From positions 1 through 64,000 of the IMG/VR virus record IMGVR_UViG_3300042562_001235: a DNA stretch of 64,000 bases; one strand, written 5' to 3'. Source of the DNA: a virus. Below the pieces are notes generated by a model that saw only the letters and a list, made by a program, of their open reading frames with translations, had not been told where the DNA came from and made no database searches. The position numbers and the translations under genes were made by a program. This document shows positions 1 through 56,027 of this stretch, piece by piece (within the stretch, counting starts at the first letter, position 1; the number at the start of each line of letters is the position of its first letter).

Positions 1-23
1 CGGATACCACATTTAAGGTTTTG

Positions 24-95
24 TACTCTTGGAAGGAATTGAACCTTCTTTTCATTCTTATCAGGAATGTGTGCTAACCATTCTACTACAAGAGC
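24..95 (-). tRNA. tRNA-Ile (anticodon GAU)
   Basis: Reverse-complement folds as a cloverleaf: acceptor GCTCTTG/CAAGAGT, T-arm GAAGG-TTCAATT-CCTTC, anticodon loop CTGATAA. CCA is not encoded. Confidence 0.6.
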
Positions 96-172
96 AATTT
101 TACCCCACTTCACCGGGTTAATGGACCGGCTGCCATATGGGAGTGGGGGTTTCCCGTTATTTCGGGACTCCG

Positions 173-244
173 CTCTTCCGGGTGGACTCGAACCACCATA
201 AATTGATTAACAGTCAACCGTAATAACCTTTATACGACAGAAGA
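173..244 (-). tRNA. tRNA-Asn (anticodon GUU)
   Basis: T-arm GGTGG-TTCGAGT-CCACC, acceptor TCTTCTG/CGGAAGA (one GU pair), anticodon loop CTGTTAA. Confidence 0.5.
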
Positions 245-251
245 ATTTTTG

Positions 252-324
252 TGGGTCCTGTAGGAATCGAACCTACTCCTCTAGTTCTTCAGACTAGCGT
301 ACGCACCAGCTATACAAAAGACCC
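252..324 (-). tRNA. tRNA-Phe (anticodon GAA)
   Basis: Acceptor GGGTCTT/AGGACCC, T-arm GTAGG-TTCGATT-CCTAC, anticodon stem CTAGT/ACTAG with loop CTGAAGA. Confidence 0.65.
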
Positions 325-468
325 AATAATGATAATGTTGGAGTACCCATCTCGCTCCAATCTTAACTGCTTAATCGTAGTTTTACGAGGCCTCGGCAGG
401 GGGTGCAGAATTCTTGATTCTATCTTGGATTGTCGACATCCGATAGATAGAGAAAACCATTATCATAG

Positions 469-549
469 TGGGGCCGGGTGGACTCGAACCACTCCCAAAA
501 GGACGAGATTTACAGTCTCGCTGCCGTATCCGAACGACTTTCCGTCCCC
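469..549 (-). tRNA. tRNA-Tyr (anticodon GUA), class II with long variable arm
   Basis: T-arm GTGG-TTCGAGT-CCAC, anticodon stem CGAGA/TCTCG with loop CTGTAAA. The 81-nt length fits the long variable arm of bacterial Tyr tRNAs. The acceptor stem has one A-G mismatch. Confidence 0.45.
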
Positions 550-555
550 AATTTG

Positions 556-626
556 TACCTCGTAGTGGAATCGAACCACTTCCCTTTGCATGTAAAACAA
601 ATACGCTTCCGTTACGCCAACAAGGT
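556..626 (-). tRNA. tRNA-Val (anticodon UAC)
   Basis: T-arm AGTGG-TTCGATT-CCACT, acceptor ACCTTGT/ACGAGGT, anticodon loop TTTACAT. Confidence 0.5.
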
Positions 627-705
627 AATTTGTACCGAGTAATGGTGTTGAGCCATTCTAAAGTCAGATATGAGCCGTCTTTGGTCCCGGACCACTCGGT
701 GATTG

Positions 706-777
706 AGGTGATAGTAGGATTCGAACCCACGTAACAGATTTTGCAGACCTGTGCCTAAGCCACTCGGCCATATCACC
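706..777 (-). tRNA. tRNA-Cys (anticodon GCA)
   Basis: Perfect 7-bp acceptor GGTGATA/TATCACC, T-arm GTGGG-TTCGAAT-CCTAC, anticodon stem CAGGT/ATCTG with loop CTGCAAA. Confidence 0.6.
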
Positions 778-784
778 ATTTTTG

Positions 785-855
785 TTACCCCTGAGAGAAT
801 CGAACTCCCCCCGCATGGACCAAAACCATGTGTACTAACCGATATACGAAGGGGC
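785..855 (-). tRNA. tRNA-Gln (anticodon UUG)
   Basis: T-arm GGGAG-TTCGATT-CTCTC, anticodon stem CATGG/CCATG with loop TTTTGGT, acceptor TGCCCCT/AGGGGTA. Confidence 0.5.
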
Positions 856-862
856 AAAATTG

Positions 863-946
863 AGGAAGACATGGGAATCGAACCCACAACGGTGTTACCC
901 GCTACTTGTTTTCAAGACAAGCTCCTCGTCCATTCGGCCGCCTTCC
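863..946 (-). tRNA. tRNA-Ser (anticodon UGA), class II
   Basis: 84 nt, acceptor GGAAGGC/GTCTTCC, T-arm GTGGG-TTCGATT-CCCAT, anticodon stem CTTGT/ACAAG with loop CTTGAAA, long variable arm. Confidence 0.55.
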
Positions 947-3271: not shown

Positions 3272-3525
3272 AATAATTTAATTTATTTTTGACAAAAATA
3301 TAAAATAAAATTGATACTCCAAACTTTTTTTAAGATATTTATTAGTATGATTATGACCAATTAATAATTGGGGCTTTTGGAAATCATACAGATATGAGAA
3401 TGATGGTGTCGTAAGGCTCGGAAAAACCTTAAACCATAAACAATCAAAAAAGAAATTAATATTAAAGGGGTTCTTACCCCTTTTTTTATTGAAAAAATTT
3501 ACTAAATTTATAAAAACTTATTTAT

Positions 3526-3861
3526 ATGGAAAATTATACAAACCCTGAACCAGGGGACATGAAACAAGACGTTCAAGATTTATTGAACGCATCATTAATC
3601 TTTGCAAGAGCATTAGGTTTAATCTTTCAACAAGGAGAAGGAATTGTTGTTGATATAAAAGGAGATGTTATTTTAAAAGAAGACACAAAAAAAGTTATTG
3701 TATTTCAACATAACAATCAAATTCATATCTATAAATGTGAAGAAGATTTGGAAGAAGGAACTGCGGTTAACATGAATAATGAAGAAAATCAAGAAAATGT
3801 TGACTCTTCAGATATTGAAGTAAGCGGAGCTGAAGTTGTAACACCAACTGACGAACAATAA
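3526..3861 (+). CDS. hypothetical acidic protein
   Basis: 111-aa ORF; TATTTAT motif abuts the ATG. Confidence 0.5.
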   Translation: MENYTNPEPGDMKQDVQDLLNASLIFARALGLIFQQGEGIVVDIKGDVILKEDTKKVIVFQHNNQIHIYKCEEDLEEGTAVNMNNEENQENVDSSDIEVSGAEVVTPTDEQ

Positions 3862-3880
3862 AAAACAAACAAAAACTTAA

Positions 3881-5545
3881 ATGAGAGTATTAGGATTTTC
3901 GGTAGGACACGATAAAGGTGCGGTTATCATAGAAAATGGAAAAGTTGTGGTGGGTATCACCCAAGAAAGATTATCTAGGATAAAACACGATGGTGCATAT
4001 CAAGGGGGATTAATTCCTTTTGAATCCATAAACTATTGTTTAAATTATTTGAGTATTACTCATAGGGATATAGACTTATTTGTTTATAGTACCACTGAAA
4101 TAACCGATGATGTTGATTCTCAGTTTTTCAACAAATATATCGATTTAAAAAGGAAAAAACTTAAATTTTTACCTCACCATTTGGCCCACGCATATTCAAC
4201 GTTTTTTAGTTCAGGTTTCGAAGAATCAGCAATAATTGTTGCGGACGCATCCGGAAGTATTTTAAGCTACAAAAACAAATTACATGAATGGTATGATGTT
4301 GATAGAACTGATTTAGACCCTGAAGAAGATTGGGCCGAAGGAATTTCATTATTTCATTTTACAAAAAACGGATATAATGAAGTTTATAAAAAATGGATAA
4401 AATATCCTGTTCCTATTGACACCAATGAAGGTGTTTCTGTTGGAACTGTTTATTCAACAGGTTCATTACAATTAATCTACGAACCAAATGAAAACACTTG
4501 GCCAGCAGGTAAATTAATGGGGTTGGCGTCATATGCTGACAAAACAGTTGTTGATGAAGCTCCACAATATGTAAAAGAATTAGACGACGATATATTCATA
4601 CCAAATAATACAATCTACCCAAAAGTAACTTGGAAATCTGATTTTTTCTCAAGAGCATGTGTTGCGGGAATTTACCAAAGGGAACAAGAAAGGTCTTCTT
4701 TAATTTTAGCTAAAATCGCAAAAAATTTAACAAAATCTTCGAATGTATGTGTTGCTGGTGGGTCATTTTTAAATTGTAATTCAAATGAAGTTATTCTAAA
4801 TTCAGGATTATATGACAATTCTTATTTTTTAGCTCCGAGTGATGATAGTGGGATTCCATTAGGATGCGCTTGGTATGCATATCAACAACTTACGGATATT
4901 GTTTCATCTGAACCAATGTCCCCATATTTTGGTAAAACATATTCAAAACAAGAAATTATCACGGCAATTAATAACCACCCTGATTTAAATATTATTGAGT
5001 ATGTTGATGAAAGTGAATTAATTAAAGATGTAACCCATTGGTTAACCCAAAATAGAGTGATTGGTTGGTTTCAGGGAGGGTCAGAAATTGGTCCAAGGGC
5101 ATTAGGTAATCGTTCAATATTAGCATCACCAATTCAAAAATGGATGTCAGGTCATATTAATGGGGATATCAAACATAGAGAATGGTATCGTCCCTTTGCA
5201 CCGGCAGTTTTATTTGAACATCAATCTGAAGTCTTCGAATCAGATGTTTATTCTCCTCATATGTTGGTGACCACGTCAGTTAAAGAAGAATGGAGAGATA
5301 AAATACCTGCAGTTACTCATATTGATTATTCTGCAAGACATCAATCGGTTACCAAAGAGAATAACCCAAAATTTTATTCACTAATCAATTCGTTTTATGA
5401 TGAAACCGGTGTTCCTGTTTTACTTAACACAAGTTTTAATGGTCCACACGAACCAATTGTTGAAACTCCTGAAGAGGCAATTAAAACATTCATTTCAAAC
5501 AAACTTGACATATTAGTAATTGATAATTTTATTATAAGTAGATAA
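3881..5545 (+). CDS. carbamoyltransferase (NodU/CmcH/NovN family), paralogue 1
   Basis: N-terminal domain motif LPHHLAHAYSTFFSSGF. C-terminal Carbam_trans_C motifs GWFQGGSEIGPRALGNRSILASP, RPFAPAVL, PAVTHIDYSARHQSV and LLNTSFNGPHEPIVETPEEAI. Confidence 0.85.
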   Translation: MRVLGFSVGHDKGAVIIENGKVVVGITQERLSRIKHDGAYQGGLIPFESINYCLNYLSITHRDIDLFVYSTTEITDDVDSQFFNKYIDLKRKKLKFLPHHLAHAYSTFFSSGFEESAIIVADASGSILSYKNKLHEWYDVDRTDLDPEEDWAEGISLFHFTKNGYNEVYKKWIKYPVPIDTNEGVSVGTVYSTGSLQLIYEPNENTWPAGKLMGLASYADKTVVDEAPQYVKELDDDIFIPNNTIYPKVTWKSDFFSRACVAGIYQREQERSSLILAKIAKNLTKSSNVCVAGGSFLNCNSNEVILNSGLYDNSYFLAPSDDSGIPLGCAWYAYQQLTDIVSSEPMSPYFGKTYSKQEIITAINNHPDLNIIEYVDESELIKDVTHWLTQNRVIGWFQGGSEIGPRALGNRSILASPIQKWMSGHINGDIKHREWYRPFAPAVLFEHQSEVFESDVYSPHMLVTTSVKEEWRDKIPAVTHIDYSARHQSVTKENNPKFYSLINSFYDETGVPVLLNTSFNGPHEPIVETPEEAIKTFISNKLDILVIDNFIISR

Positions 5546-5548
5546 TTT

Positions 5549-7138
5549 ATGAGTTCAATTTATGGATTCTTTACCGGGTCACATAGTCCATCTATTGCAT
5601 TAATTAGAGACGGTAAAATAACATTTTGTATTGAGGAAGAGAGACTAACCCGAATAAAATCAGGTGATAATTACGATATTAATTGTGAATTATCATGTAT
5701 TGAGGCGGAAAAATATACAGGTCTAAAAATAACAGATGCCGATTACCGAATCTTTGCAAATCCAACACCGGACGAATTTGCCCGTAAAATTACCAACAAT
5801 AATTATGAAAAAGTTAGTCACCATACCGCACACGCATATGGTGCCTACTACACCAGTGGAATGAAAGGTAAATCAATTACTATCACATACGATGGTGGAG
5901 GGGAAAGTACCGTAATGAAAGTTTATCTGTGTGATAATGGAAAAATGACTTTAATCCAAAGTCATCCATTGGCGTCATTTGGAAGTATTTCTCATGTTTG
6001 GGGATTCAGTACATCCTCAATGAGAGGATATGACGAACATGGTGAGGGAATATGGAAAATGTGTAAAGATGAAGGTAAATTAATGGGTATGGGTCCAAAT
6101 GGTCATTACGATGAGACAATTTATAATATGTTGTCCACCGTAATTAATTATAAGGATTTTAGATTTTACCCATCCGGGTCATCAAGTAAAACTATGTTTT
6201 TAGGTGACATGATGAAATTCAATGGATATTTCGATACTCAAGAAAAAATGGAAATCTATTCATTTAATTTACAAAAACGAACAGAAGACCTATTCCTAAA
6301 ATTTATTGACGACTTACATAATTTATATCCTGAATATAAGCAATTATGCTTATCCGGAGGACTATTTGCCAATGTTAAATTAAATCAAAAACTCAACGAA
6401 TTAGAATGGGTTGACGAAATTTATATTTACCCACCAATGGGTGATGAAGGGTTGTCATTAGGAGCTTGTATCTATAAAGCAGTAAAATTGGGTGAGATTA
6501 CAGAACCAATTGAACTAACTAATGTTTATTTTGGAAAGTCATACAATAATGATGAAATACAGGAAATCTCAAAAGATTATAGTTTTAAGAGAGAACCATA
6601 TAATCCGAAAGATATCGCAAATTATATCAATCAAGGAGGAATCGTTGGATGGTTTCAAAATGGTTCCGAATTTGGTCCAAGGTCTTTAGGGGCTCGAAGT
6701 ATTTTAGTTAGACCAACTGAAATCTCAACACATAGACTACTAAATCAAAGATTAAATCGATATGATACAATGCCATTTGCCCCAATTATATTAGAAGAAT
6801 CCTTTGACAATATTTTTACACCATCAAAGTCAAAATACACATCTGAGTTTATGACATTATGTTACAATACAAAAGATGAGTGGATTGATAAGATACCTGC
6901 AGTTATACAAAAGTCAGATAAAACGGCCAGACCACAAATAGTTAAAAGGTCTAAAACACCTAAATTTTGGGAAATATTAAATGAATATTATATGTTATCA
7001 GGAATACCATTATTATTGAACACTTCATTTAATTCTCACAATCAACCAATCATTGAAAACCCTGAGCAAGCATTTGAGTCATTAAAACTTGGGGTTATCG
7101 ATAAACTAATAATTGAAGATTATGTTTATTTCTCTTAA
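5549..7138 (+). CDS. carbamoyltransferase (NodU/CmcH family), paralogue 2
   Basis: HHTAHAYGAYYTSG, GWFQNGSEFGPRSLGARSILVRP, MPFAPIIL and LLNTSFNSHNQPIIENPEQAFE. Shares the same domain order as the upstream gene but has diverged from it. Confidence 0.85.
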   Translation: MSSIYGFFTGSHSPSIALIRDGKITFCIEEERLTRIKSGDNYDINCELSCIEAEKYTGLKITDADYRIFANPTPDEFARKITNNNYEKVSHHTAHAYGAYYTSGMKGKSITITYDGGGESTVMKVYLCDNGKMTLIQSHPLASFGSISHVWGFSTSSMRGYDEHGEGIWKMCKDEGKLMGMGPNGHYDETIYNMLSTVINYKDFRFYPSGSSSKTMFLGDMMKFNGYFDTQEKMEIYSFNLQKRTEDLFLKFIDDLHNLYPEYKQLCLSGGLFANVKLNQKLNELEWVDEIYIYPPMGDEGLSLGACIYKAVKLGEITEPIELTNVYFGKSYNNDEIQEISKDYSFKREPYNPKDIANYINQGGIVGWFQNGSEFGPRSLGARSILVRPTEISTHRLLNQRLNRYDTMPFAPIILEESFDNIFTPSKSKYTSEFMTLCYNTKDEWIDKIPAVIQKSDKTARPQIVKRSKTPKFWEILNEYYMLSGIPLLLNTSFNSHNQPIIENPEQAFESLKLGVIDKLIIEDYVYFS

Positions 7139-7154
7139 CGAAGAAAAAATTGTG

Positions 7155-7751
7155 ATGAATTTTACACCATCACCTTATTTACGAATATCAGGTCCCGATG
7201 AACTTTATTACGTTGAGTTGAGGGAATACCTAAAAAATGATGACCAATCTCTTTACGTTGAAGGTCGTAGAATATCCGGTAATGGTGGTGAGTTTCATAT
7301 CCCAATCGAATTTTATTTTGATTTTGAAATCTCTGTTTCAAAATATATCCCCAATTTTGGTTTAAAAAAAATATTTACTCACCGTTTTAACGATTACGGA
7401 AAACAAGTATTGTTTAATTTGAAGACTAACAATTATGATGAATGTCTATTGTGGGTGTCTCGGGTGGAGGAATATCAAAAAATACATGGATGTAAAATTT
7501 TTTTAAATACCAATTTTGACGATATAAATATCAAGTATCCATCATACTATCAAGTAGATGGTATAGATTATTATAAGTCATATAATATCGGTAGATTTCC
7601 TAAAAATAGTAATGATTGGAGAACAATTGACCCAAGACAAGAAGGGGTTATTTGGTACGGAAATTGGAAAACATTTTGGTCATATCAACATCCGAGATTA
7701 TACTCCAACTTATCAAGTGAGGAAATTATTGATGATATTTTGGCACTTTAA
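7155..7751 (+). CDS. hypothetical protein
   Basis: ORF 7113..7751 trimmed to the internal ATG at 7155 (MNFTPSP) to remove a 26-nt overlap with the upstream gene. Confidence 0.45.
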   Translation: MNFTPSPYLRISGPDELYYVELREYLKNDDQSLYVEGRRISGNGGEFHIPIEFYFDFEISVSKYIPNFGLKKIFTHRFNDYGKQVLFNLKTNNYDECLLWVSRVEEYQKIHGCKIFLNTNFDDINIKYPSYYQVDGIDYYKSYNIGRFPKNSNDWRTIDPRQEGVIWYGNWKTFWSYQHPRLYSNLSSEEIIDDILAL

Positions 7752-7786
7752 TTATTTTTGTATATCTTTGTTGAAAATTAAAACAT

Positions 7787-8533
7787 ATGATGAACGTAGG
7801 ACAAGAATTTCAAAGTTATTACACAAAACATTTAGGTAAACCATCTTTGGATTTACACAACTTCAACAACCACATTCAAAATTCAATGACTCCATACATT
7901 TTGGAAGAAAGAGAAATGAGAGTAACCCAAATGGATATTTTCTCTCGTTTAATGATGGATAGAATATTATGGGCTTCAGGTCCGGTTGATGACAGAATGG
8001 GTGATATCATCCAATCACAACTTATTTTCTTAGACAACTTGGATAAGAAAAAAGATATTAATTTATATCTACAAACTCCGGGTGGGAGTGTTTTAAGTGG
8101 ATTAGGTATTAGAGACACTATGAACTTTATTAATGCCGATGTAGCAACCACAAATATTGGTATGTGTGCGTCAATGGGTTCCGTATTACTTTCTTCGGGA
8201 GCTAAAGGTAAAAGGTCTTCATTAATATTTTCTAAAGTAATGACACACATGGTTTCTCACGGAACACAAGGTAATGTTCAAGACACAAGAATTAATCAAC
8301 TTGAGGCCGAAAAATACAATTATTTATTATTCAAAATATTGGCAGAGAATTGTGGTAAGACATTTGAAGAAATGTTAGAATCATCAAGAAATGATAAATG
8401 GTTCAATTCTGATGAAGCATTACAATTTGGTCTAATTGATAAAATTGTTGGTGTGGAGAAAAATCAATCAATGTCAGATATGATGGTTGGATTTGACGAT
8501 TATTATGAAAAAGAAATTCTTAAAAGAAAATAA
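7787..8533 (+). CDS. ClpP-family serine protease (S14), candidate prohead/processing protease
   Basis: [23 protein letters not shown] versus ClpP [40 protein letters not shown] gives the catalytic Ser context. [14 protein letters not shown] supplies the catalytic His. About 40 aa of N-terminal extension. Confidence 0.8.
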   Translation: [248 protein letters not shown]

Positions 8534-8555
8534 GAATTGTTATTAAATGAAAAAA

Positions 8556-8583
8556 GAAGGTATTACTACCTTCTTTTTTTTTT
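8556..8583 (+). terminator. rho-independent terminator (GAAGGTA...TACCTTC plus T10)
   Basis: Stem-loop followed by a run of 10 T just after the ClpP stop. Confidence 0.65.
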
Positions 8584-8646
8584 AGATAAGATAAACACCC
8601 CCCTTGTTTTAAAAATCTAATTTATATAATAGAGTTTTTAATTCTA

Positions 8647-9300
8647 TTATGCTGCAACTTCAGGTTTTAATTTTTCATAAACATTTGAAGCTTTTTTATT
8701 AAAATTGTTGTACACTCCACAGACAGTATCTTCTAATTTGTCTTGTAATTCAATCACAACTTTAGTATCTTGAATCGCACCTAATAATGTATTTCTTAAT
8801 ATTGTATATCCGGTACCTTGCATACCTTGTTGTTCTTGTACCATCATAACTAATGCCTCAACTAATGCTTCAGAAACTAACGCAGTTAATTCGTTACAAC
8901 TTTTTAAGGCCTTTGCAAGTCTCCTTGGGTCTTTAAGTATAAAGGACATTAAAGCATTTTTAAAAAACCCTGACAATCCAAGTCCTCCTAAAATTGAATT
9001 AACCAATGGTTCAATTGCCGCTTGAAGAATACCACTTAAACTATTTCCGAACATCTTACCCAAGAAATCCATTAATTGTTCATTCAAAATATTGTTTTCG
9101 TCTAAAAATCTAATTTCCTCAATTAAATTTTTAGCGATTTTCATCTTTTTACCTTCAGGTAAAAATTCAAAATTATCAATAACTTCTTTAGACTCAATTA
9201 TTGTAAAAATTCTAGTTTTAACTAAATTTTCTTCAATTAAAATTTTTTCTTTTTGTTCTTTAGTCTCTTTAATTACCTTTTTTATTTTTTTCTCAATCAT
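8647..9300 (-). CDS. hypothetical protein
   Basis: 217-aa ORF, first of a five-gene minus-strand operon (8647-13656). Confidence 0.5.
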   Translation of the reverse strand: MIEKKIKKVIKETKEQKEKILIEENLVKTRIFTIIESKEVIDNFEFLPEGKKMKIAKNLIEEIRFLDENNILNEQLMDFLGKMFGNSLSGILQAAIEPLVNSILGGLGLSGFFKNALMSFILKDPRRLAKALKSCNELTALVSEALVEALVMMVQEQQGMQGTGYTILRNTLLGAIQDTKVVIELQDKLEDTVCGVYNNFNKKASNVYEKLKPEVAA

Positions 9301-14658: not shown

Positions 14659-15240
14659 ATGAGATTTAATTCATTAACTATCGACGACTTTTACGCTAAC
14701 CCAATGCAGGTTAGAGAATTTGCACTTAAACAAGAATTTAAAGTTAGAGGTAATTATCCCGGACAAAGAACCGTATCGTTCTTAAATGACCCAATTAAAA
14801 AGAAATTAAGGGATATCTTATATCCATTTGCCGGTGAGATTACAAATTGGGGTGGAGAATATACAGGTTCTTTTCAATATACAACAGCATCCGATAGGTC
14901 ATGGATTCATGCGGATTCAACAACTGATTGGGCAGCAGTTTGTTATTTAACCCCTGACGCACCCGCAACTGCAGGTACAGGTATTTTTAGACATAAAGAA
15001 ACCGGATGGATGAATTTTGACTATAAAAAACAAAACGACCCTGAATACATGAAACAAGCACCTCCGGGACATGATATGATGGATTATACAAAATGGGAAA
15101 TGGTGGACCGAGTTGGAAATGTATTTAATCGACTAATAATGTATAGAGCCGACAACTATCACGTATCTTTAGATTATTTTGGGAAAGACCTTAATGACGG
15201 AAGATTATTTCAAGTGTTTTTCTTCAACACTGAACGTTAA
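14659..15240 (+). CDS. hypothetical protein, possible 2OG-Fe(II)-oxygenase-like fold
   Basis: Possible HxD...H triad (WIHAD ... GIFRHK) with YPGQRT upstream. Weak call. Confidence 0.35.
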   Translation: MRFNSLTIDDFYANPMQVREFALKQEFKVRGNYPGQRTVSFLNDPIKKKLRDILYPFAGEITNWGGEYTGSFQYTTASDRSWIHADSTTDWAAVCYLTPDAPATAGTGIFRHKETGWMNFDYKKQNDPEYMKQAPPGHDMMDYTKWEMVDRVGNVFNRLIMYRADNYHVSLDYFGKDLNDGRLFQVFFFNTER

Positions 15241-15665
15241 CATTGATGGTTCAAAATTAAGTCAGGGTTAAGTTCTTTAATAATTTTTAAAACCCCATCA
15301 GTACAATAACAAGTATCTAAAGTTGTTAATATTTTTTCAAATTTTTTGAAACCGATAACTAAAGGATGATATTGAGTGTTTATAGTTTTAAGCATAAAAT
15401 CAAAATTGGGGTCCCATAATTTATTATATGGAATACCTAATTCATGTAAGAAATCAATAGAATCTTCTGTATACGACTCAAAATAAGGTATTTCAATTTC
15501 TTTTAATAAAATATTAAGTTCATTTGTATCATTATTTTCTCCATAGGTTGAGCGTAAAGATAAACCAGTTTCATTTTGGTTTTTTTGCAAAAAATGCCAA
15601 AGAAAATAATCATGTTCTTTGGCAATTTTAATAAAATCTTTATGATTTACTTGAGTATTTGTCAT
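15237..15665 (-). CDS. hypothetical protein
   Basis: 142-aa ORF. Confidence 0.45.
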   Translation of the reverse strand: MTNTQVNHKDFIKIAKEHDYFLWHFLQKNQNETGLSLRSTYGENNDTNELNILLKEIEIPYFESYTEDSIDFLHELGIPYNKLWDPNFDFMLKTINTQYHPLVIGFKKFEKILTTLDTCYCTDGVLKIIKELNPDLILNHQC

Positions 15666-16264
15666 TATCTAAAATTTGCTCCACATAACCAAGTTACTAA
15701 TGACTTCCTAACCCCTGAACTTAATGGTGTCACCCTATGTAATAAAAATGATGGGAAGAAACATAATGTACCTAGTCCTTTTGGAACTTCCATTATATTA
15801 CCACCAGGATTCATTTGTAATACACCACCTTCATATTCTTCAGGTGTTGATAATTGTAATACACACGATAATTTTCTATTTGAAATACCCGGACCTAAAT
15901 CAACATGCCAATCATAGTGACCTCCGTTACCATAATATTTAGTAAATTGTAATTGGTCTTGATAATCCCATATATCAAAATTCCACAATTCTTTATTTGC
16001 AATTTTTGCATAATAGGCGATTTTCTCATAAATCCAAGAAGTTTCTTCTGTCTCATCAATCCAAGAAATTTCACTTTTTCTATAGTCAGAAACAGTGAGT
16101 TCTTGGTCACTCCCAACAGTAGTTGCTTTAATTAGTTGTTGTGTTTCACCTATTTCAATTATTTTAAGAATTTCTTCAGGTGTGAACGCATCCGTAAAAT
16201 AATAATAATTCATGTGATTAATATTACTTCGATGTTCAGGTAAAAAATGATTTGTTAATGACAT
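15665..16264 (-). CDS. 2OG-Fe(II) oxygenase, prolyl 4-hydroxylase-like (P4Hc)
   Basis: HYDWHVDLGPG...RKLSCVLQLS...GGVLQMN...LHRVTPL...RKSLVTWL gives the HxD...H...RxS signature. ORF trimmed to Met24 (MSLTNHF) to remove the 5' overlap with the divergent GT17 gene. Confidence 0.7.
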   Translation of the reverse strand: MSLTNHFLPEHRSNINHMNYYYFTDAFTPEEILKIIEIGETQQLIKATTVGSDQELTVSDYRKSEISWIDETEETSWIYEKIAYYAKIANKELWNFDIWDYQDQLQFTKYYGNGGHYDWHVDLGPGISNRKLSCVLQLSTPEEYEGGVLQMNPGGNIMEVPKGLGTLCFFPSFLLHRVTPLSSGVRKSLVTWLCGANFR

Positions 16265-16321
16265 TTGTGTTTTTTTTATTAAATTAATTATAATTAATAT
16301 TATTAATAATTTCAACACAAT

Positions 16322-17575
16322 ATGAGAAAACATAAAATAATTGACGCTATTTTTTTATACGATGAAATAGAAATGTTGCATTTTAGGTTAACGGAGTTAG
16401 ATGAGTACGTAGACGAATTCGTTATTATGGAATGTGAAATGGATTTTAAGGGTAATCCTAAACCATTGAATTATCTTGAAAATATTGATTTATTTAAAAA
16501 ATGGGAAAATAAAATAACATATCTTCCAACCCCAAAATTAACTTTTGATGATGTATCTCATCTTTATGAATCAGTTAAATTCACACGAAATTCTAATAAC
16601 GAAGACCCAAATTTTTTAGAAAAAAATGATATTAGGTTTTTTCAAATAACAATATTAATTGGTATTTTATTAGAAAAATCAATAGGGTTCGATGATTTAA
16701 TTTTAATTTCAGACGTTGATGAAATTCCAGATTTATCTAAAGTTTCTTTATTTAAACCTCATCTTAAATTTGGTGTTGTTCTTTTAAGACACACTAACTT
16801 TATATGGTCAGTAAAATATTATGATGTAATTCCAACTATAGGAACCATTGGGTTTCAATATACACGGTTAATAACAAATCCTAATATGATTTATCTTGCA
16901 TATTTCAATAAATCAGATTTATCAAAAGATAATTTTGAAATTATAGATAATGGTTATCATTTATCTCATTTTTATGATTTAGAAAAAACAATAAAAAAAT
17001 TGGAATTACTTCACGATAAAAATAGTGAGTATGATTTAAATGAGATGGTTATTAACATGAGGTACGCCTATGAAAATTTAACATCAATAAAAACTAATCG
17101 TTATCAAAAATTTTATAATTTAATTAATTATGATGGAGAATTACCTAAAAACATTGGTTTACTAAAGAATCAAGATATTGGTAGGTCGTGGAATAAAAAA
17201 AATTTAATATTACTTAATCGTACTAGAACCCCAAATGATATTAAAATGGAGGAAATGTTTGACAATATTTGTATAATTAATTTTACCGATAACCCACAAT
17301 TACCATACGAAACTATACTGTCAAAAAAAAGAACTTATTATAACATACTAAAACCTCTTAAAATTTATTATAAAACAGATGATGTTTTAGATTTAGAAAG
17401 TTTTCAAAAAGTATTTTGTATTAATGATATTAAAAAAATTGTTCAAGATTTATTACCAATAAACCAAGATTTGATAGTTTTTACTAATGAAAAAAAAACC
17501 ACAAATAGTGTTACATACTCGTGGGAAGAAATTAAAAATAAATTTATTTATGATTTAGTTAAAGATATTCTATAA
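16322..17575 (+). CDS. glycosyltransferase family 17-like (beta-1,4-mannosyl-glycoprotein GlcNAc-transferase-like)
   Basis: N-terminus KIIDAIFLYDEIEMLHFRLTELDEYVDEFVIMECEMDFKGNPKPLNY matches the GT17 domain start (f.nElDlLeiRl.eL...VD.FvivEs..tFtG.pKpl). Confidence 0.6.
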   Translation: MRKHKIIDAIFLYDEIEMLHFRLTELDEYVDEFVIMECEMDFKGNPKPLNYLENIDLFKKWENKITYLPTPKLTFDDVSHLYESVKFTRNSNNEDPNFLEKNDIRFFQITILIGILLEKSIGFDDLILISDVDEIPDLSKVSLFKPHLKFGVVLLRHTNFIWSVKYYDVIPTIGTIGFQYTRLITNPNMIYLAYFNKSDLSKDNFEIIDNGYHLSHFYDLEKTIKKLELLHDKNSEYDLNEMVINMRYAYENLTSIKTNRYQKFYNLINYDGELPKNIGLLKNQDIGRSWNKKNLILLNRTRTPNDIKMEEMFDNICIINFTDNPQLPYETILSKKRTYYNILKPLKIYYKTDDVLDLESFQKVFCINDIKKIVQDLLPINQDLIVFTNEKKTTNSVTYSWEEIKNKFIYDLVKDIL

Positions 17576-20232: not shown

Positions 20233-20515
20233 TATGAAGAAAATTGCAATTGTTATTGGGATTTTATTAGTAATAATTGGTTTAGTTGAAACAATTGATT
20301 TATCATTTTATTTGATGAACCGTCCAGACACATACCTATTCAATTCAGGTCTTGTATTATTAGGATTACAATTATTAGGGTTTGCCTACATATGTCGTTT
20401 TATGTTTGATTTAGTATCGAAATGGTCTAAAGATAAGGAAACGGAAATAACAACCGAGGAACCTAAAAAACCAAAGAAAAAAAATAAAAATAACTTAAAA
20501 CAAGAAAAAAAATGA
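20222..20515 (+). CDS. small two-TM membrane protein (NfeD-like partner of the SPFH protein?)
   Basis: Two hydrophobic helices plus a Lys-rich tail; overlaps the downstream SPFH gene start by 4 nt. Confidence 0.45.
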   Translation: MKNSMKKIAIVIGILLVIIGLVETIDLSFYLMNRPDTYLFNSGLVLLGLQLLGFAYICRFMFDLVSKWSKDKETEITTEEPKKPKKKNKNNLKQEKK

Positions 20516-21339
20516 GAAGAATTTTAGTAGCAGTAGGAATTGTCGTATTACTTTTTACAATGGCAATGTCGTGTGAAAGAATCGATGCGGGTCACGTAGG
20601 TGTAAAAGTCGATATGTACGGAAGTGGTAAAGGGGTGAACGATGTCACCGAATGTACGGGGGTAGTATTTTATAATCCTATCACCACAAAAATTTATGAG
20701 TTCCCAACGTTTATACAACACAAAGAATACAAAGATGAAAATTCATTTGTGGTAAATAGTAAGGATGGTTCGGAATTTAGTGTTTCTCCAATTATGAACT
20801 ATTCAGTTCAAAGAGAAAAAGTCCCTACAATATTCGCTAAATACAGAAGAAGTTTGGAAGAAATTGAAGAAGGATTCTTAAAAACTGCAGTGTATGACGC
20901 ATTCCGTTTAGCAACTAATAAGTATACTGCAGATGGATTAATCGGAAATAGAGAAATTTTTGAGATTGAAGTTAGACGTTTGTTAGAAGCTCAACTACTT
21001 AAAGAAGGATTCGTAATTAATCAGTTCACATCTAATTTAGTTTATCCGGATTCATTCAAGAAAGCAATTAATGCTAAGAACAACGCGGTACAGTCGGCAT
21101 TGATGGCGGAGAACAAAGTAAAACAGGCTGAGGCTGAGGCAAAAATTAAAGTGGCAACTGCTAATGGTAATGCTGAGGCATTGTTGGCAAACGCAAGAGC
21201 TGAGGCGGAATCTAACAGATTAAGACAACAAACATTAACTCCAATGTTATTACAACAACAATGGATTGAGAAATGGAAAGGTAATGTTCCAACCACTCAG
21301 TTGGGGGCTAACACTCAAGTGTTGTACGGTCTAAAATAA
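20512..21339 (+). CDS. SPFH/band-7 (prohibitin/stomatin-like) membrane protein
   Basis: N-terminal TM, SPFH-core-like region, C-terminal coiled-coil AEAEAKIKVATANGNAEALLANARAEAES. Confidence 0.65.
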   Translation: MRRILVAVGIVVLLFTMAMSCERIDAGHVGVKVDMYGSGKGVNDVTECTGVVFYNPITTKIYEFPTFIQHKEYKDENSFVVNSKDGSEFSVSPIMNYSVQREKVPTIFAKYRRSLEEIEEGFLKTAVYDAFRLATNKYTADGLIGNREIFEIEVRRLLEAQLLKEGFVINQFTSNLVYPDSFKKAINAKNNAVQSALMAENKVKQAEAEAKIKVATANGNAEALLANARAEAESNRLRQQTLTPMLLQQQWIEKWKGNVPTTQLGANTQVLYGLK

Positions 21340-21351
21340 TAAAAAAATAAA

Positions 21352-21390
21352 ATATTTAAAAAATCCTCATTTATTGAGGATTTTTTTTTA
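21352..21390 (+). terminator. rho-independent terminator (ATCCTCA-TTTAT-TGAGGAT plus T9)
   Basis: Hairpin plus T-run after the SPFH gene. Confidence 0.65.
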
Positions 21391-21396
21391 TCTTTG
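21389..21396 (+). promoter_or_regulatory. -7 promoter box TATCTTTG
   Basis: TAnnTTTG 4 nt before the ATG at 21401; implies a leaderless transcript. Confidence 0.4.
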
Positions 21397-21400
21397 CATT

Positions 21401-22480
21401 ATGAAAATTGATATAGAAATAATAAACAGATACGTTAGTGAAGGTTTGATTGAGAAAAACTCTCATCCAACTCTTCCAATCGCGATTTACAACTACTCAA
21501 GAAAAGTTCAATATGAAGGTCTGTGGGATACAATAACCAGAAATTGTCGAGGTCTTGTATTAGATAATGATGGTAATGTTCTTGCAAAACCATTTGGTAA
21601 GTTTTTCAACATGGAAGAACACGACCCAAGTGAAATCCCAAATGAAACTTTTGAGGTATTTGAAAAAATGGATGGCTCGTTAGGTATATTGTTTTGGTAC
21701 CAAGGTAAATGGATTTTTGCAAGTAAAGGTTCATTCACTTCAGACCAAGCAATTAAAGGTCAAGAAATGTTATCAAAATATGATATACAACCAGTTCCAA
21801 AAGGATATACTACTTTGGTGGAAATTATCTATCCGGAGAATCGTATTGTTTGTGATTATGGTGACGAAGAAAGTTTGGTTGCACTTACTATGATTAGTAA
21901 TGTTTCAGGGAAAGAATTTGATTATTCTTCTTTGATTCAAGTTTGTGAAGTTGTGGGATTCCCAGTTGTTAAACGATATGATGGAGTGGAGGATTATAAG
22001 ACCCTTAAATCAATTATTGAGTCAAACCAAGAAGGTTTTGTCATAAGATTCAGAAATGGGTTTAGAATGAAGATAAAAGGGGAAGAATACGTTCGTCTCC
22101 ACAGAATCTTAACCGGATTTTCTAATATAAACATTTGGGAAGTATTAAAAAATGGGGAAGACATAAACACATATTTGGATAAAGTCCCGGATGAATTTGA
22201 CAAATGGGTTAAAAATGTGGTTAAAGATTTGAGATATGGGTATTTTCAAATTAGTGAAAGAGCTGGAAAAACGTTTGATTACTATATGTATGGTAAGTAC
22301 AACGATAAAGAACCGGTTACAGACAGAAAAGTTTTTGCTGAATGGGTTATGACTCAAGAACAATATCTTCAACCAATATTATTTAAAATGTTTGATAAAA
22401 GGGATTATTCTTCATACATTTGGGAGAAGATAAGACCAACATATAGTAAACCATTTTGGCAAAAAGAAAGTGAGTCATGA
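21401..22480 (+). CDS. ATP-dependent RNA ligase (T4 RnlA-like nucleotidyltransferase)
   Basis: KxDG motif I FEKMDGSLGILF, motif IV EGFVIRF, motif V KIKGEEY. About 360 aa, as for T4 Rnl1. Start chosen at MKIDIEI after the promoter box. Confidence 0.55.
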   Translation: MKIDIEIINRYVSEGLIEKNSHPTLPIAIYNYSRKVQYEGLWDTITRNCRGLVLDNDGNVLAKPFGKFFNMEEHDPSEIPNETFEVFEKMDGSLGILFWYQGKWIFASKGSFTSDQAIKGQEMLSKYDIQPVPKGYTTLVEIIYPENRIVCDYGDEESLVALTMISNVSGKEFDYSSLIQVCEVVGFPVVKRYDGVEDYKTLKSIIESNQEGFVIRFRNGFRMKIKGEEYVRLHRILTGFSNINIWEVLKNGEDINTYLDKVPDEFDKWVKNVVKDLRYGYFQISERAGKTFDYYMYGKYNDKEPVTDRKVFAEWVMTQEQYLQPILFKMFDKRDYSSYIWEKIRPTYSKPFWQKESES

Positions 22481-22865: not shown

Positions 22866-23296
22866 GTATAACAAAAAAATACATAGATTTTATGTTGGAG
22901 AACGTTATTGGTTCCAACATCCGAGTTCAGTTACCTAATCCCCAAGAAGATGGAAAATTGTTTTGGACTAAATTAGGCCCAATCGTTTATATGAATGTTG
23001 AGTTGGAAGTTATTGAAAAATATACCCGGTCGGTTAAGTTTAATTTGAAATTTGATAGATACGAAGTTGAGAAAATTATCTTCATACCAATTGAATCTTC
23101 ACCAATGAGTATTAAAGAAAAATTACACAATACTATTGAAAATTTAGTTAGTAAAACTTTCATCGGTGATGGTAGACAGGAAGATATGAGACAAATGTAT
23201 GAGGATAAAAGAAAGACAATGTTTTCCGGATTAGAGAAGATGGTTGGTAAGATTAAAGAAATTGATAGTAAGGATTCTGATAAAATTGTTGAATAA
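22862..23296 (+). CDS. hypothetical protein
   Basis: 144-aa ORF. Confidence 0.45.
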   Translation: MSITKKYIDFMLENVIGSNIRVQLPNPQEDGKLFWTKLGPIVYMNVELEVIEKYTRSVKFNLKFDRYEVEKIIFIPIESSPMSIKEKLHNTIENLVSKTFIGDGRQEDMRQMYEDKRKTMFSGLEKMVGKIKEIDSKDSDKIVE

Positions 23297-23721
23297 TGGA
23301 ATTATTAAATACACACCCAATTAAAAAATCTGATTTAGGTTTTCACGGAAACTTATTTGGAGGAAAATTGCTTGCATGGATTGATGCCGCAGCTGCGGGG
23401 TATTCTATGCAATTATGTGATACACCAAGAATGGTTACTGTTTCAATAGATAAATGTTATTTTGAAAAACCGGCTAAAGAAGGACAATTACTTAAAATAT
23501 ATGGTAGACCTTCTAAATTGGGTACTACCTCTGTAACATTATACATGGAGGCGAGAGCACATAATGTTTACACCGGTAATCAAGTAATTGTCTTAAAAAC
23601 TAATATACGATTTGTTCGTATTGATGAAGAAGGAAATCCAATACCGATTAACGAAAAAGGTAGAAAAAAAATAGATTTATTAATTGAGGATTATTTGAAA
23701 ACTAACGAAATACAAAATTGA
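23296..23721 (+). CDS. hotdog-fold acyl-CoA thioesterase (4HBT/YbgC-like)
   Basis: FHGNLFGGKLLAWIDAAAAGYSM matches the 4HBT active-site region. Confidence 0.55.
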   Translation: MELLNTHPIKKSDLGFHGNLFGGKLLAWIDAAAAGYSMQLCDTPRMVTVSIDKCYFEKPAKEGQLLKIYGRPSKLGTTSVTLYMEARAHNVYTGNQVIVLKTNIRFVRIDEEGNPIPINEKGRKKIDLLIEDYLKTNEIQN

Positions 23722-47449: not shown

Positions 47450-47476
47450 ACAAAACCCCCATACGGGGGTTTTTTT
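47450..47476. terminator. bidirectional terminator (CCCCCATACGGGGG plus T7)
   Basis: Hairpin flanked by an A-run and a T-run. Confidence 0.65.
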
Positions 47477-56004: not shown

Positions 56005-56027
56005 CGATTAGGGTGGGTTTGTTTTTA
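55990..56027. terminator. bidirectional terminator (CCCACCGATTAGGGTGGG)
   Basis: Hairpin flanked by an A-run and a T-run. Confidence 0.65.

What the first reader, a model, noticed from the sequence alone, without database searches (positions are those of the whole stretch)
3881..7138. Tandem pair of divergent NodU/CmcH-type carbamoyltransferases in a phage
Two full-length, mutually divergent O-carbamoyltransferase paralogues with both N- and C-domain motifs intact are translationally coupled. Carbamoyltransferases of this family decorate sugars, antibiotics and nucleoside-like scaffolds. In a phage, paired enzymes suggest carbamoylation of a glycan (capsid, host polysaccharide) or of a modified nucleobase. 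The same block carries a GT17-like glycosyltransferase, a P4H-like hydroxylase, a possible second 2OG oxygenase and a ThyA homologue. Together this looks like a multi-step modification pathway.
Basis: partly seen in the sequence, partly recalled or inferred. Interest (0 to 1): 0.65.

Follow-up and report, generated by a model that had tools for sequence, protein, structure and literature searches.

The report
Paired sugar-carbamoylating enzymes in a jumbo phage
A large uncultured freshwater phage of Bacteroidota carries two intact but only distantly related carbamoyltransferase genes side by side, which most likely decorate sugars on a glycan rather than DNA; such phage genes are already known, but the second one has a previously unnoticed partner resembling half of a protein glycosyltransferase.

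Summary
CT1 (3881-5545) and CT2 (5549-7138) are full-length TobZ/NodU-family O-carbamoyltransferases, 29% identical, and both keep their catalytic motifs in more than 30 orthologues each.

They are not recent duplicates. CT1 groups with the "Nol-like" carbamoyltransferases of cyanophages and pelagiphages. CT2 belongs to a separate, so far virus-only lineage.

The new point is the gene that overlaps the end of CT2 (orf209, 7122-7751). It is a stand-alone N-terminal module of Aah/TibC-type protein heptosyltransferases. CT2 and orf209 are gained or lost together. In distant phages the module is duplicated, or fused to GT9, GT2, FkbM-methyltransferase and carbamoyltransferase domains. There it sits inside sugar-nucleotide clusters next to tail genes.

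The DNA reading is disfavoured. The only characterised phage enzyme of this family, the 5hmC carbamoyltransferase, forms a remote clade that is always next to an Asp177 dCMP hydroxymethylase. The ThyA here is a canonical thymidylate synthase 17 kb away.

The best reading is O-carbamoylation of a glycoconjugate, possibly a virion-protein glycan. Carbamoyltransferases in phages, including tandem pairs (S-SCSM1), are already known, so interest is moderate.

The parts
3526..3861 (+). orf111: small acidic protein, always immediately upstream of CT1; function unknown
   Evidence: Present before CT1 in all 50 related IMG/VR contigs examined. 44 invariant positions, all within residues 1-83. About 660 homologues, all metagenomic, none with Pfam domains. 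The AF2 model is low confidence (pLDDT 50).
3881..5545 (+). CT1: O-carbamoyltransferase, TobZ-type YrdC-like pocket (K431-x-R433...R437-PFAP)
   Evidence: Pfam PF02543 and PF16861. phrog_1601, E 8.5e-104. PDB hits to TobZ, NovN, GdmN and 7xb6 at 181-203 bits. 152 invariant residues in 32 orthologues, including all catalytic motifs. Groups with cyanophage and pelagiphage carbamoyltransferases.
5549..7138 (+). CT2: O-carbamoyltransferase of a different subfamily (R-x3-M-PFAP / SEFM type), in a virus-only lineage
   Evidence: Pfam PF02543 and PF16861. 29% identical to CT1. More than 150 representatives of 50%-identity clusters score closer to CT2 than CT1 does. Catalytic motifs invariant in 34 orthologues. 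Absent together with orf209 in 5 contigs.
7122..7751 (+). orf209: stand-alone N-terminal module (beta-barrel plus first Rossmann-like half) of Aah/TibC-type protein heptosyltransferases; proposed acceptor-side partner of CT2
7787..8533 (+). ClpP: co-oriented downstream neighbour, cellular type; probably co-transcribed, no evidence of a functional link
   Evidence: Pfam CLP_protease, E 1.7e-50. Best NCBIfam matches are ClpP (227 bits), against 61 bits for the head-maturation model. No plus-strand terminator-like site between orf111 and the start of ClpP.
14659..15240 (+). DUF6445 protein: tentatively part of the same glycan programme
   Evidence: Pfam DUF6445. Recurs next to carbamoyltransferase genes in divergent phages, directly after the second orf209-like gene in L099-L101 and in the L029 cluster.
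15665..16333 (-). P4H/PKHD-like 2OG-Fe(II) oxygenase: tentatively associated
   Evidence: Pfam 2OG-FeII_Oxy_3. NCBIfam Fe2+-dependent dioxygenase, below cut-off. A homologue lies inside the sugar cluster of L099 and in L029.
16322..17575 (+). GT17-like glycosyltransferase: tentatively associated
   Evidence: Pfam Glyco_transf_17, E 1.7e-21. Syntenic in most relatives but fast-evolving, 26-47% identity.

Best explanation
The five-gene block orf111-CT1-CT2-orf209-ClpP belongs to an uncultured freshwater jumbo phage (related contigs reach about 320 kb) whose host is probably a member of the Flavobacteriales.

CT1 and CT2 are both active ATP- and carbamoyl-phosphate-dependent O-carbamoyltransferases of the TobZ/NodU family. 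By analogy with TobZ, the YrdC-like C-domain makes carbamoyl-AMP and the Kae1-like N-domain transfers the carbamoyl group to a hydroxyl. This mechanism is inferred, not shown.

The two enzymes come from different subfamilies and most likely carbamoylate different positions or different sugars of a phage-directed glycoconjugate.

CT2 works with orf209, a truncated Aah/TibC-like module. orf209 keeps the acceptor-side half of a GT-B protein heptosyltransferase and lacks the nucleotide-sugar-binding half. I infer that it recruits or presents the acceptor. The DUF6445 protein, the P4H-like 2OG oxygenase and the GT17-like transferase 7 to 10 kb downstream probably belong to the same glycan programme. 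ThyA does not.

The preferred target, also inferred, is a glycan on a virion protein such as a tail fibre. A host envelope polysaccharide is the close alternative.
For: Family, architecture and intact catalytic residues in both copies.

CT2 and orf209 overlap by 17 nt and are present or absent together: 45 contigs carry both and 5 contigs carry neither.

The CT-orf209 pairing persists down to 25-31% identity and is duplicated in L099-L101.

The orf209 domain occurs in fusions. In L049 it is fused to GT9, FkbM methyltransferase and a carbamoyltransferase in one 1331-aa protein, and to GT2 and DUF5672 in another. A sulfotransferase and the tail sheath gene lie next to these.

L099 reads: tail-fibre chaperone domain, GT4, radical SAM, CT, orf209-like, N-only CT, orf209-like, DUF6445, sugar epimerase, PfkB kinase, ADH, 2OG oxygenase, TPP enzyme, SDR.

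Isolates show the same kind of context. In P-SSM2 the carbamoyltransferase is followed by a nucleotidyltransferase, a sugar kinase, phosphoheptose isomerase and an epimerase, all between tail-fibre-like genes. In S-SCSM1 a tandem pair precedes dTDP-glucose 4,6-dehydratase. In HTVC008M the gene sits beside a UDP-glucose dehydrogenase-family gene.

There is a precedent for carbamoyl-heptose chemistry: WapO (PA5005) in the Pseudomonas LPS core (PMC8005017).
Against: No substrate is shown and no biochemistry exists for any member of the CT1 or CT2 lineages.

In this window, no complete TibC-like glycosyltransferase or sugar-nucleotide pathway was found among the ORFs scanned. Only GT17 was found.

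The glycan genes lie 7 to 10 kb from the pair and on mixed strands.

A physical CT2-orf209 interaction is inferred from gene order, co-loss and fusions only.

At 38% identity (L109), the gene downstream of the CT2 relative is not an orf209 homologue.

Adjacency of carbamoyltransferase genes to thymidylate synthase recurs (L029-L032, S-SCSM1) and is unexplained.
Confidence: 0.55

Rival explanations
1. The glycan target is a host envelope polysaccharide (LPS core, O-antigen or capsule), remodelled during infection to block superinfection or to stop progeny from adsorbing to debris, rather than a virion protein glycan.
Confidence: 0.2
2. One or both enzymes carbamoylate a hydroxymethylated base (5hmC or 5hmU) in phage DNA or nucleotides, like the 5hmC carbamoyltransferase of Yang et al. 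2021.
For: This activity exists in the same protein family and in phages (PMC8670742). Carbamoyltransferase genes sit beside thymidylate synthase genes in L029-L032 and S-SCSM1. 2OG oxygenases are nearby.
Against: The 5hmC clade (the eLife enzyme, Xp15, Effie, BF503P2) scores 255-369 bits within itself but only 39-82 bits to CT1 and CT2, and it branches separately. CT1 and CT2 keep W/G/R at TobZ positions 408/421/423, where the characterised enzyme has I/C/T. The partners of that clade are Asp177 ThyA-like hydroxymethylases about 20% identical to E. coli ThyA. The ThyA here and in L029 has N177 and H147, is 50% identical to E. coli ThyA, and passes the TIGR03284 cut-off. No Tet_JBP, C5-methyltransferase, dCTPase or dCMP deaminase was found among the window ORFs scanned.
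Confidence: 0.07
3. The enzymes tailor a small molecule (an antibiotic-like or nucleoside-like metabolite, or a free sugar nucleotide) made during infection, not a polymer-bound glycan.
For: All structurally characterised relatives (TobZ, NovN, GdmN) act on small natural products. A 4HBT thioesterase and kinases occur in the window. The sugar-nucleotide enzymes in relatives would also fit carbamoylation at the nucleotide-sugar level.
Against: No PKS, NRPS or aminoglycoside genes were found. The TibC-like acceptor module and the many glycosyltransferases point to a polymer or protein acceptor.
Confidence: 0.1
4. One copy is a decaying duplicate or pseudo-enzyme ('stuffer DNA').
For: CT2 lacks TobZ K443 and R449. 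The CT2-orf209 cassette is dispensable in 5 contigs.
Against: The 'R-x3-M-PFAP' form of CT2 is the common form across a large part of the family. It also occurs in the biochemically active 5hmC enzyme. 102 residues, including all the other catalytic motifs, are invariant across 34 orthologues down to about 53% identity. The two copies are not recent duplicates.
Confidence: 0.03

Closest known systems
Phage 'Nol-like' carbamoyltransferases (phrog_1601) of T4-like cyanophages and pelagiphages (P-SSM2, S-SSM7, S-SCSM1, HTVC008M)
   Same: Same two-domain enzyme. Full-length HMM match for both copies. CT1 branches with them. Several copies per genome, and even a tandem pair (S-SCSM1), occur. They have sugar-nucleotide or 'LPS cluster' neighbours.
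   Different: At most 33% identity to any isolate. The host phylum differs (Bacteroidota). CT2 lies outside that group. The orf111 and orf209 partners were not annotated in the isolate regions inspected. The function of the cyanophage enzymes is itself untested.
TobZ (PDB 3VEN), NovN, GdmN: antibiotic-tailoring O-carbamoyltransferases
   Same: Kae1-like plus YrdC-like architecture, metal ligands and carbamoyl-AMP site motifs. CT1 keeps K443, R445 and R449.
   Different: 133-203 bits, with most of the score coming from the C-domain. No aminoglycoside, coumarin or ansamycin genes nearby. CT2 has L and M at positions 443 and 449.
5-hydroxymethylcytosine carbamoyltransferase (Yang et al., eLife 2021, PMC8670742)
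   Same: Phage-encoded member of the same Pfam family, using carbamoyl phosphate and ATP.
   Different: A separate clade (44-60 bits, BLASTP and phmmer). Different signature residues. Found in siphovirus-sized genomes of about 48-56 kb (three isolates inspected), next to Asp177 dCMP hydroxymethylase, dCMP deaminase and replication genes. None of that applies here.
Aah/TibC bacterial autotransporter heptosyltransferases (TIGR04414; PDB 4RAP)
   Different: orf209 stops at 209 aa. It has no C-terminal nucleotide-sugar domain and only one invariant cysteine. It scores 37.5 bits against a cut-off of 200. It carries instead a highly conserved tail (residues 160-191) that is predicted with low confidence.
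WapO (PA5005), putative 7-O-carbamoyl-heptose transferase of the Pseudomonas LPS core
   Same: A NodU-family enzyme acting together with GT9 heptosyltransferases on a heptose acceptor (PMC8005017).
   Different: A cellular LPS-core gene. No sequence comparison was made here. It is cited only as a chemical precedent.

Membership tests
TobZ/NodU/CmcH O-carbamoyltransferase family (Pfam PF02543 + PF16861) | Two-domain architecture: Kae1/ASKHA-like N-domain followed by a YrdC-like C-domain | tested here: met
   Both domains score above the gathering thresholds in CT1 and CT2. Alignments to TobZ, NovN and GdmN span both domains.
TobZ/NodU/CmcH O-carbamoyltransferase family (Pfam PF02543 + PF16861) | N-domain metal ligands (HHxxH, Asp, Asp) and the conserved N-terminal His | tested here: met
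   CT1: H10, H99/H100/H103, D122, D322. CT2: H12, H91/H92/H95, D115, D299. All are invariant in 32 and 34 orthologues respectively.
TobZ/NodU/CmcH O-carbamoyltransferase family (Pfam PF02543 + PF16861) | C-domain carbamoyl-AMP site (GPRxLG, R445, M473, R498, NTSFN/S530; K443 and R449 in TobZ) | tested here: met
   All are present in CT1. CT2 has every one except K443 (L) and R449 (M). The active 5hmC enzyme and many family members share these two substitutions. The residue roles are taken from my knowledge of Parthier et al. 2012.
TobZ/NodU/CmcH O-carbamoyltransferase family (Pfam PF02543 + PF16861) | ATP- and carbamoyl-phosphate-dependent O-carbamoylation activity | not testable with these tools
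   Requires an enzyme assay.
NodU proper (NCBIfam NF041651 equivalog) | Score at or above the curated cut-off of 1000 bits | tested here: not met
   153 bits (CT1) and 144 bits (CT2). They are homologues, not NodU orthologues.
Phage 5hmC carbamoyltransferase clade (Yang et al. 2021) | Sequence clustering with the characterised enzyme | tested here: not met
   39-82 bits to the clade members, against 255-369 bits within the clade. The clade forms a separate branch in the NJ tree.
Phage 5hmC carbamoyltransferase clade (Yang et al. 2021) | Altered residues at TobZ W408/G421/R423 | tested here: not met
   CT1 and CT2 have W, G and R. The characterised enzyme has I, C and T. Which residues typify the whole clade is shown only in a figure of the paper that I could not read.
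Phage 5hmC carbamoyltransferase clade (Yang et al. 2021) | Genomic coupling to a ThyA-like dCMP hydroxymethylase (Asp at position 177) | tested here: not met
   The window ThyA has N177 and H147, a C-terminal IKAP motif, is 50% identical to E. coli ThyA, and scores 322 bits on TIGR03284 against a cut-off of 108. The Xp15, BF503P2 and Effie partners have Asp. Only 64 kb of a roughly 320-kb genome was seen.
phrog_1601 'Nol-like carbamoyltransferase' | Full-length match to the PHROG profile | tested here: met
   CT1 residues 1-552 against profile 1-526/528, E 8.5e-104. CT2 residues 6-527 against profile 5-526/528, E 3.7e-88.
Aah/TibC autotransporter heptosyltransferase (TIGR04414), tested for orf209 | Full-length match at or above 200 bits, including the C-terminal nucleotide-sugar-binding domain | tested here: not met
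   37.5 bits, covering only profile positions 56-174 of 374. The protein ends at residue 209.
Aah/TibC autotransporter heptosyltransferase (TIGR04414), tested for orf209 | N-terminal beta-barrel plus Rossmann-like fold of TibC | tested here: met
Thymidylate synthase ThyA, tested for 24117-25298 | Curated equivalog score and catalytic residues (C146, H147, N177, R166, Y94, and others) | tested here: met
   TIGR03284: 321.8 bits against a cut-off of 108. NF002496: 327.5 against 325. All listed residues are invariant with E. coli ThyA.

The most novel reading that the evidence does not exclude
The CT2-type carbamoyltransferase and the stand-alone TibC-like N-terminal module (orf209) form a previously undescribed two-component tailoring system. 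In it, a truncated protein-glycosyltransferase domain targets a carbamoyltransferase to a glycosylated virion protein, for example heptosylated or otherwise glycosylated tail fibres. This would make carbamoylated virion glycans a feature of jumbo phages of Gram-negative Bacteroidota.
Probability: 0.25. Interest if true: 0.65.

Novelty: new variant of a known kind. Interest (0 to 1): 0.4.

Why it matters
Carbamoyltransferases are among the commonest unexplained 'auxiliary' genes of large aquatic phages, and none outside the 5hmC clade has a demonstrated substrate. If the module described here (carbamoyltransferase plus TibC-like acceptor half, embedded in glycosyltransferase and sugar-nucleotide clusters next to tail genes) really tailors a virion or envelope glycan, two things follow. 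It would give a concrete, testable function for this whole gene class. It would also extend virion glycosylation, so far documented mainly in mycobacteriophages and giant viruses, to abundant freshwater phages. The work also gives simple sequence criteria for separating DNA-modifying from glycan-type phage carbamoyltransferases. The DNA-modifying type has a 'GPRALC-NTT'-like motif and an Asp177 ThyA-like neighbour.

Tried and rejected
**Searches that found nothing**
- Megablast of 3500-8600 against GenBank phages gave no match. Only protein-level relatives exist.
- An Rfam scan and an RNA fold of the 3.3-3.5 kb intergenic region gave nothing beyond the tRNAs, and the fold z-score was -1.35.
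- PDB sequence searches for DUF6445 gave nothing.
- The genome-contig scan for orf209 gave a single 6-kb contig in a Crocinitomix MAG. This is useful only as a host hint.

**Results too weak to use**
- The AF2 model of orf111 had pLDDT 50, so no fold search was made.
- The afdb50 fold library was unavailable.

**Ideas rejected**
- I considered that CT2 might be a cousin of the 5hmC enzyme, because both have 'DT-x-MPFAP', 'EFM' and 'RPQ'. A wider alignment showed these are the common state of a large subfamily that includes cellular proteins. CT2 also ranks 143rd of 154 for the 5hmC enzyme.
- The tblastn hits of orf209 in L102-L104 (28% identity) did not appear among the hits (E <= 1e-3) of the family HMM, so I set them aside.
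- The 246-aa gene downstream of the CT2 relative in L109 is not an orf209 homologue.
- I could not establish whether this phage belongs to the 'moraphages' (PMC12619734). That paper does not mention carbamoyltransferases.
- ClpP as a prohead protease was rejected. It scores as cellular ClpP.
Full report
**1. What is there**

ORFs 3881-5545 (CT1, 554 aa) and 5549-7138 (CT2, 529 aa) lie head to tail on the plus strand. Each matches Pfam Carbam_trans_N and Carbam_trans_C well above threshold. Each also matches phrog_1601 'Nol-like carbamoyltransferase' end to end. They are 29% identical to each other.

Their best solved relatives are TobZ, NovN, GdmN and an unnamed carbamoyltransferase (7xb6), at 134-203 bits.

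The block is tightly packed:
- orf111 (3526-3861), then 19 nt.
- CT1, then 3 nt.
- CT2, then a 17-nt overlap.
- orf209, whose true ATG is at 7122, then 35 nt.
- ClpP (7787-8533).

No plus-strand terminator-like site lies between orf111 and the start of ClpP. Co-transcription and coupling are inferred from spacing only.

**2. Both copies look active and are not recent duplicates**

An alignment with the biochemically active 5hmC carbamoyltransferase and with cyanophage and pelagiphage enzymes shows these features invariant: the N-terminal His, HHxxH, the two Asp ligands, GKxMG, GG..N..N, E-GPR-L, R, PxAP, M, RxQ and NTSFN.

Across 32 distinct CT1 and 34 distinct CT2 orthologues recovered from related contigs, 152 and 102 positions are invariant. 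These include all of the motifs above.

CT1 has the TobZ-type 'K-H-R-E-W-Y-R-PFAP / SPxM' pocket. CT2 has 'L-N-R-Y-D-T-M-PFAP / SEFM'. The CT2 form turned out to be the common state of a large subfamily, and it is also present in the active 5hmC enzyme. It is therefore not a sign of inactivation.

In a search of 1.84 billion cluster representatives, the 150 best relatives of CT2 all score at least 211 bits, whereas CT1 scores 180 bits. The pair thus consists of two old lineages placed side by side.

In a rough NJ tree, CT1 groups with the cyanophage and pelagiphage enzymes and with the L029 and L049 relatives. CT2 groups with metagenomic sequences only, on contigs no longer than about 181 kb. 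These include every carbamoyltransferase that is followed by an orf209-like gene.

**3. Whose genome**

There is no nucleotide-level match in GenBank phages. Exact copies of CT1 occur on freshwater metagenome contigs with identical synteny. IMG/VR relatives reach 317-321 kb.

A window protein at 30435-32318 carries a T9SS C-terminal sorting domain. Its only phage relatives are Flavobacterium phages vB_FspM_immuto. The single hit for orf209 among 185,579 species genomes is a 6-kb contig binned in a Crocinitomix MAG.

The element is therefore an uncultured freshwater jumbo phage, probably of Flavobacteriales.

**4. Conservation of the block**

Forty-five distinct IMG/VR contigs carry orf111-CT1-CT2-orf209-ClpP. 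Identities to the window genes are 62-90% for CT1, 53-86% for CT2 and 42-78% for orf209.

Five contigs have orf111-CT1-ClpP and lack CT2 and orf209 together. So CT2 plus orf209 behaves as one cassette, and orf111 travels with CT1.

**5. The partner of CT2**

orf209 has only about 190 relatives among 5.8 billion proteins, none annotated. A 34-sequence alignment gave an AlphaFold model with pLDDT 80 and pTM 0.75. Four lines of evidence connect it to TibC:
- Foldseek agrees, at E 2e-8.
- In BFVD the two significant hits are a 985-aa GT1-domain protein and a 924-aa 'Glycosyltransferase Aah/TibC' of uncultured phages.
- Independently, the sequence matches NCBIfam TIGR04414 (Aah/TibC) at E 1.3e-9, but only profile positions 56-174 of 374, and at 37.5 bits against a cut-off of 200.

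orf209 is therefore homologous to the N-terminal half of these GT-B enzymes (beta-barrel plus acceptor side) and lacks the nucleotide-sugar half. It is not a member of the family.

Its most conserved stretch, residues 160-191, is the only part modelled with low confidence. This would fit a segment that folds on a partner. That is an inference.

**6. The module elsewhere**

In L099-L101 two consecutive CT / orf209-like pairs occur, with orf209 HMM E-values from 1e-17 to 1e-24.

In L049 (and L047) the orf209 domain forms the N-terminus of a 1331-aa protein. It is followed there by a GT9 heptosyltransferase domain, an FkbM methyltransferase and a complete carbamoyltransferase. It also forms the N-terminus of an 812-aa protein carrying GT2 and DUF5672. 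Between these two lie an N-domain-only carbamoyltransferase, a sulfotransferase and a CT2-like gene. The next gene is the tail sheath.

L099 reads: C-terminal tail-fibre chaperone domain (Peptidase_S74), GT4, radical SAM/SPASM, CT, orf209-like, N-only CT, orf209-like, DUF6445, NAD-dependent sugar epimerase/dehydratase, PfkB sugar kinase, Zn-ADH, 2OG-FeII_Oxy_3, TPP enzyme, SDR.

A CT2 relative at 38% identity (L109) follows an FkbM methyltransferase and a GT2.

Isolates show the same pattern:
- In P-SSM2 the carbamoyltransferase is followed by nucleotidyltransferases, a sugar kinase, phosphoheptose isomerase, an epimerase and a PhyH dioxygenase, all between two tail-fibre-like genes.
- In S-SCSM1 a tandem pair of carbamoyltransferases lies between td and dTDP-glucose 4,6-dehydratase.
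- In HTVC008M the gene lies between a methyltransferase and NadE / UDP-glucose-dehydrogenase-family genes.

This is consistent, recurring glycan context. It also places DUF6445 and the P4H-like oxygenase, both present in the window at 14.6-16.3 kb, inside such clusters.

**7. The DNA alternative**

Yang et al. (eLife 2021, PMC8670742) showed that a phage enzyme of this family converts 5hmC to 5-carbamoyloxymethylcytosine. They also showed that such genes co-occur with ThyA-like genes bearing Asp177.

I used their published sequence. Its relatives in isolates are Xp15, Effie/MD-2021a and the Bacteroides phages BF503P2 and BF486P2 (32-39% identity). In the three isolates inspected (Xp15, BF503P2, Effie), the carbamoyltransferase lies in a replication or nucleotide-metabolism module, beside a ThyA-like protein with Asp at position 177, no H147, no C-terminal IKAP motif and about 20% identity to E. 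coli ThyA.

That clade scores 255-369 bits internally but only 39-82 bits to CT1 and CT2. It has I/C/T where CT1 and CT2 keep TobZ W408/G421/R423.

The window ThyA (24117-25298) and the ThyA adjacent to the CT1-like gene in L029-L032 are 50% identical to E. coli ThyA, with every catalytic residue, including H147 and N177, retained. The window protein passes the TIGR03284 equivalog cut-off.

No Tet/JBP enzyme, C5-methyltransferase, dCTPase or dCMP deaminase appeared among the roughly 70 window ORFs scanned. Only 64 kb of a roughly 320-kb genome is visible, however. I put the DNA reading at about 7%.

**8. Mechanism proposed**

Shown:
- There are two intact enzymes of different subfamilies.
- The CT2-orf209 coupling is conserved.
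- orf209 is homologous to the N-terminal half of TibC.
- Relatives sit in glycan-gene contexts.

Inferred:
- Each enzyme makes carbamoyl-AMP from ATP and carbamoyl phosphate and transfers the carbamoyl group to a sugar hydroxyl, as TobZ does.
- CT1 and CT2 act on different positions or different sugars.
- orf209 supplies acceptor recognition for CT2.
- The acceptor is a glycan on a virion protein. The reasons are that TibC is a protein glycosyltransferase and that tail genes are adjacent in L049, L099 and P-SSM2. A host envelope polysaccharide is the near alternative.

Carbamoyl-heptose has a precedent in the Pseudomonas LPS core (WapO; PMC8005017).

**9. Novelty and verdict**

Phage carbamoyltransferases have been annotated since the first cyanomyovirus genomes. 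Up to three or four copies occur per genome, as in S-SSM7 (PMC3037559), and a tandem pair occurs in S-SCSM1. A DNA-modifying branch is characterised. The pair as such is therefore a new, distant member of a known kind.

Three things are not described in what I could search:
- the CT2 lineage;
- its stand-alone TibC-like partner;
- the recurrent fusion and duplication of that module.

On that basis I rate the finding a new variant of a known kind, with moderate interest (0.4). The substrate remains untested.

Noticed in passing
window 23-946 (- strand): Array of eight tRNA genes (Ile-GAT, Asn-GTT, Phe-GAA, Tyr-GTA, Val-TAC, Cys-GCA, Gln-TTG, Ser-TGA) at the window edge, about 3 kb upstream of the carbamoyltransferase block.
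   Followed up: partly
window 30435-32318 (+), 35350-36324 (+): A 627-aa protein with cohesin-like domains and a T9SS C-terminal sorting signal, followed nearby by a C-type-lectin protein. Its only phage relatives are Flavobacterium phages vB_FspM_immuto, at about 32% identity. This suggests a phage-encoded cargo for the host type IX secretion system, and it is a clue to a Bacteroidota host.
   Followed up: partly
window 24117-25298 (+): A canonical thymidylate synthase that carries insertions relative to E. coli ThyA (about residues 88-127, 200-238 and 303-348). The ThyA next to the CT1-like gene in L029-L032 also carries insertions relative to E. coli ThyA. Adjacency of carbamoyltransferase and thymidylate synthase genes recurs in L029-L032 and S-SCSM1 and is unexplained.
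   Followed up: partly
window 7122-7751, residues 160-191 of orf209: The most conserved stretch of orf209 (GRFPKxSxDxRTxDPRxEGxIWxGNWKTFWSYQHPR) is the only part that AlphaFold models with pLDDT below 50. It may be a partner-binding segment.
   Followed up: no
window 7787-8533 (+); L029 6280-8304: The ClpP here scores as a cellular ATP-dependent ClpP, not as a prohead protease. The distant relatives L029-L032 encode a ClpB/ClpA-like double-AAA ATPase about 1.5 kb upstream of their carbamoyltransferase.
   Followed up: partly
window 56025-56834 (-): A 269-aa protein with a class II aminoacyl-tRNA-synthetase catalytic core (Pfam tRNA-synt_2, E 7e-14). It has weak similarity to EF-P lysine aminoacylase EpmA/GenX and to Asn/Asp-tRNA ligases, and it is too short to be a full synthetase.
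   Followed up: no
window 47475-47909 (-), 44741-45382 (+), 23296-23721 (+), 21374-22480 (+), 20512-21339 (+): Other auxiliary genes: a cyclophilin-type prolyl isomerase, a non-specific DNA/RNA endonuclease, a 4HBT thioesterase, a T4 Rnl1-like RNA ligase and an SPFH/band-7 protein.
   Followed up: no
window 3464-3483: A bidirectional terminator-like hairpin (AAAGGGGTTCTTACCCCTTTTTTT) sits in the divergent intergenic region between orf84 (-) and orf111 (+). A sigma-70-like site lies at 3289-3318. No Rfam match was found and the region has no significant fold.
   Followed up: partly
L099 6602-7690; L049 4797-6086: Carbamoyltransferase genes that have only the Kae1-like N-domain and no YrdC-like domain occur inside the distant CT/orf209 clusters. 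This suggests that carbamoyl-AMP synthesis and carbamoyl transfer can be split between proteins.
   Followed up: no
L107 (S-SCSM1) 5175-8757: The two tandem carbamoyltransferases of the isolate S-SCSM1 are each annotated as two CDS, split into an N-terminal and a C-terminal piece. This is either a genuine split or a frameshift or annotation artefact.
   Followed up: no
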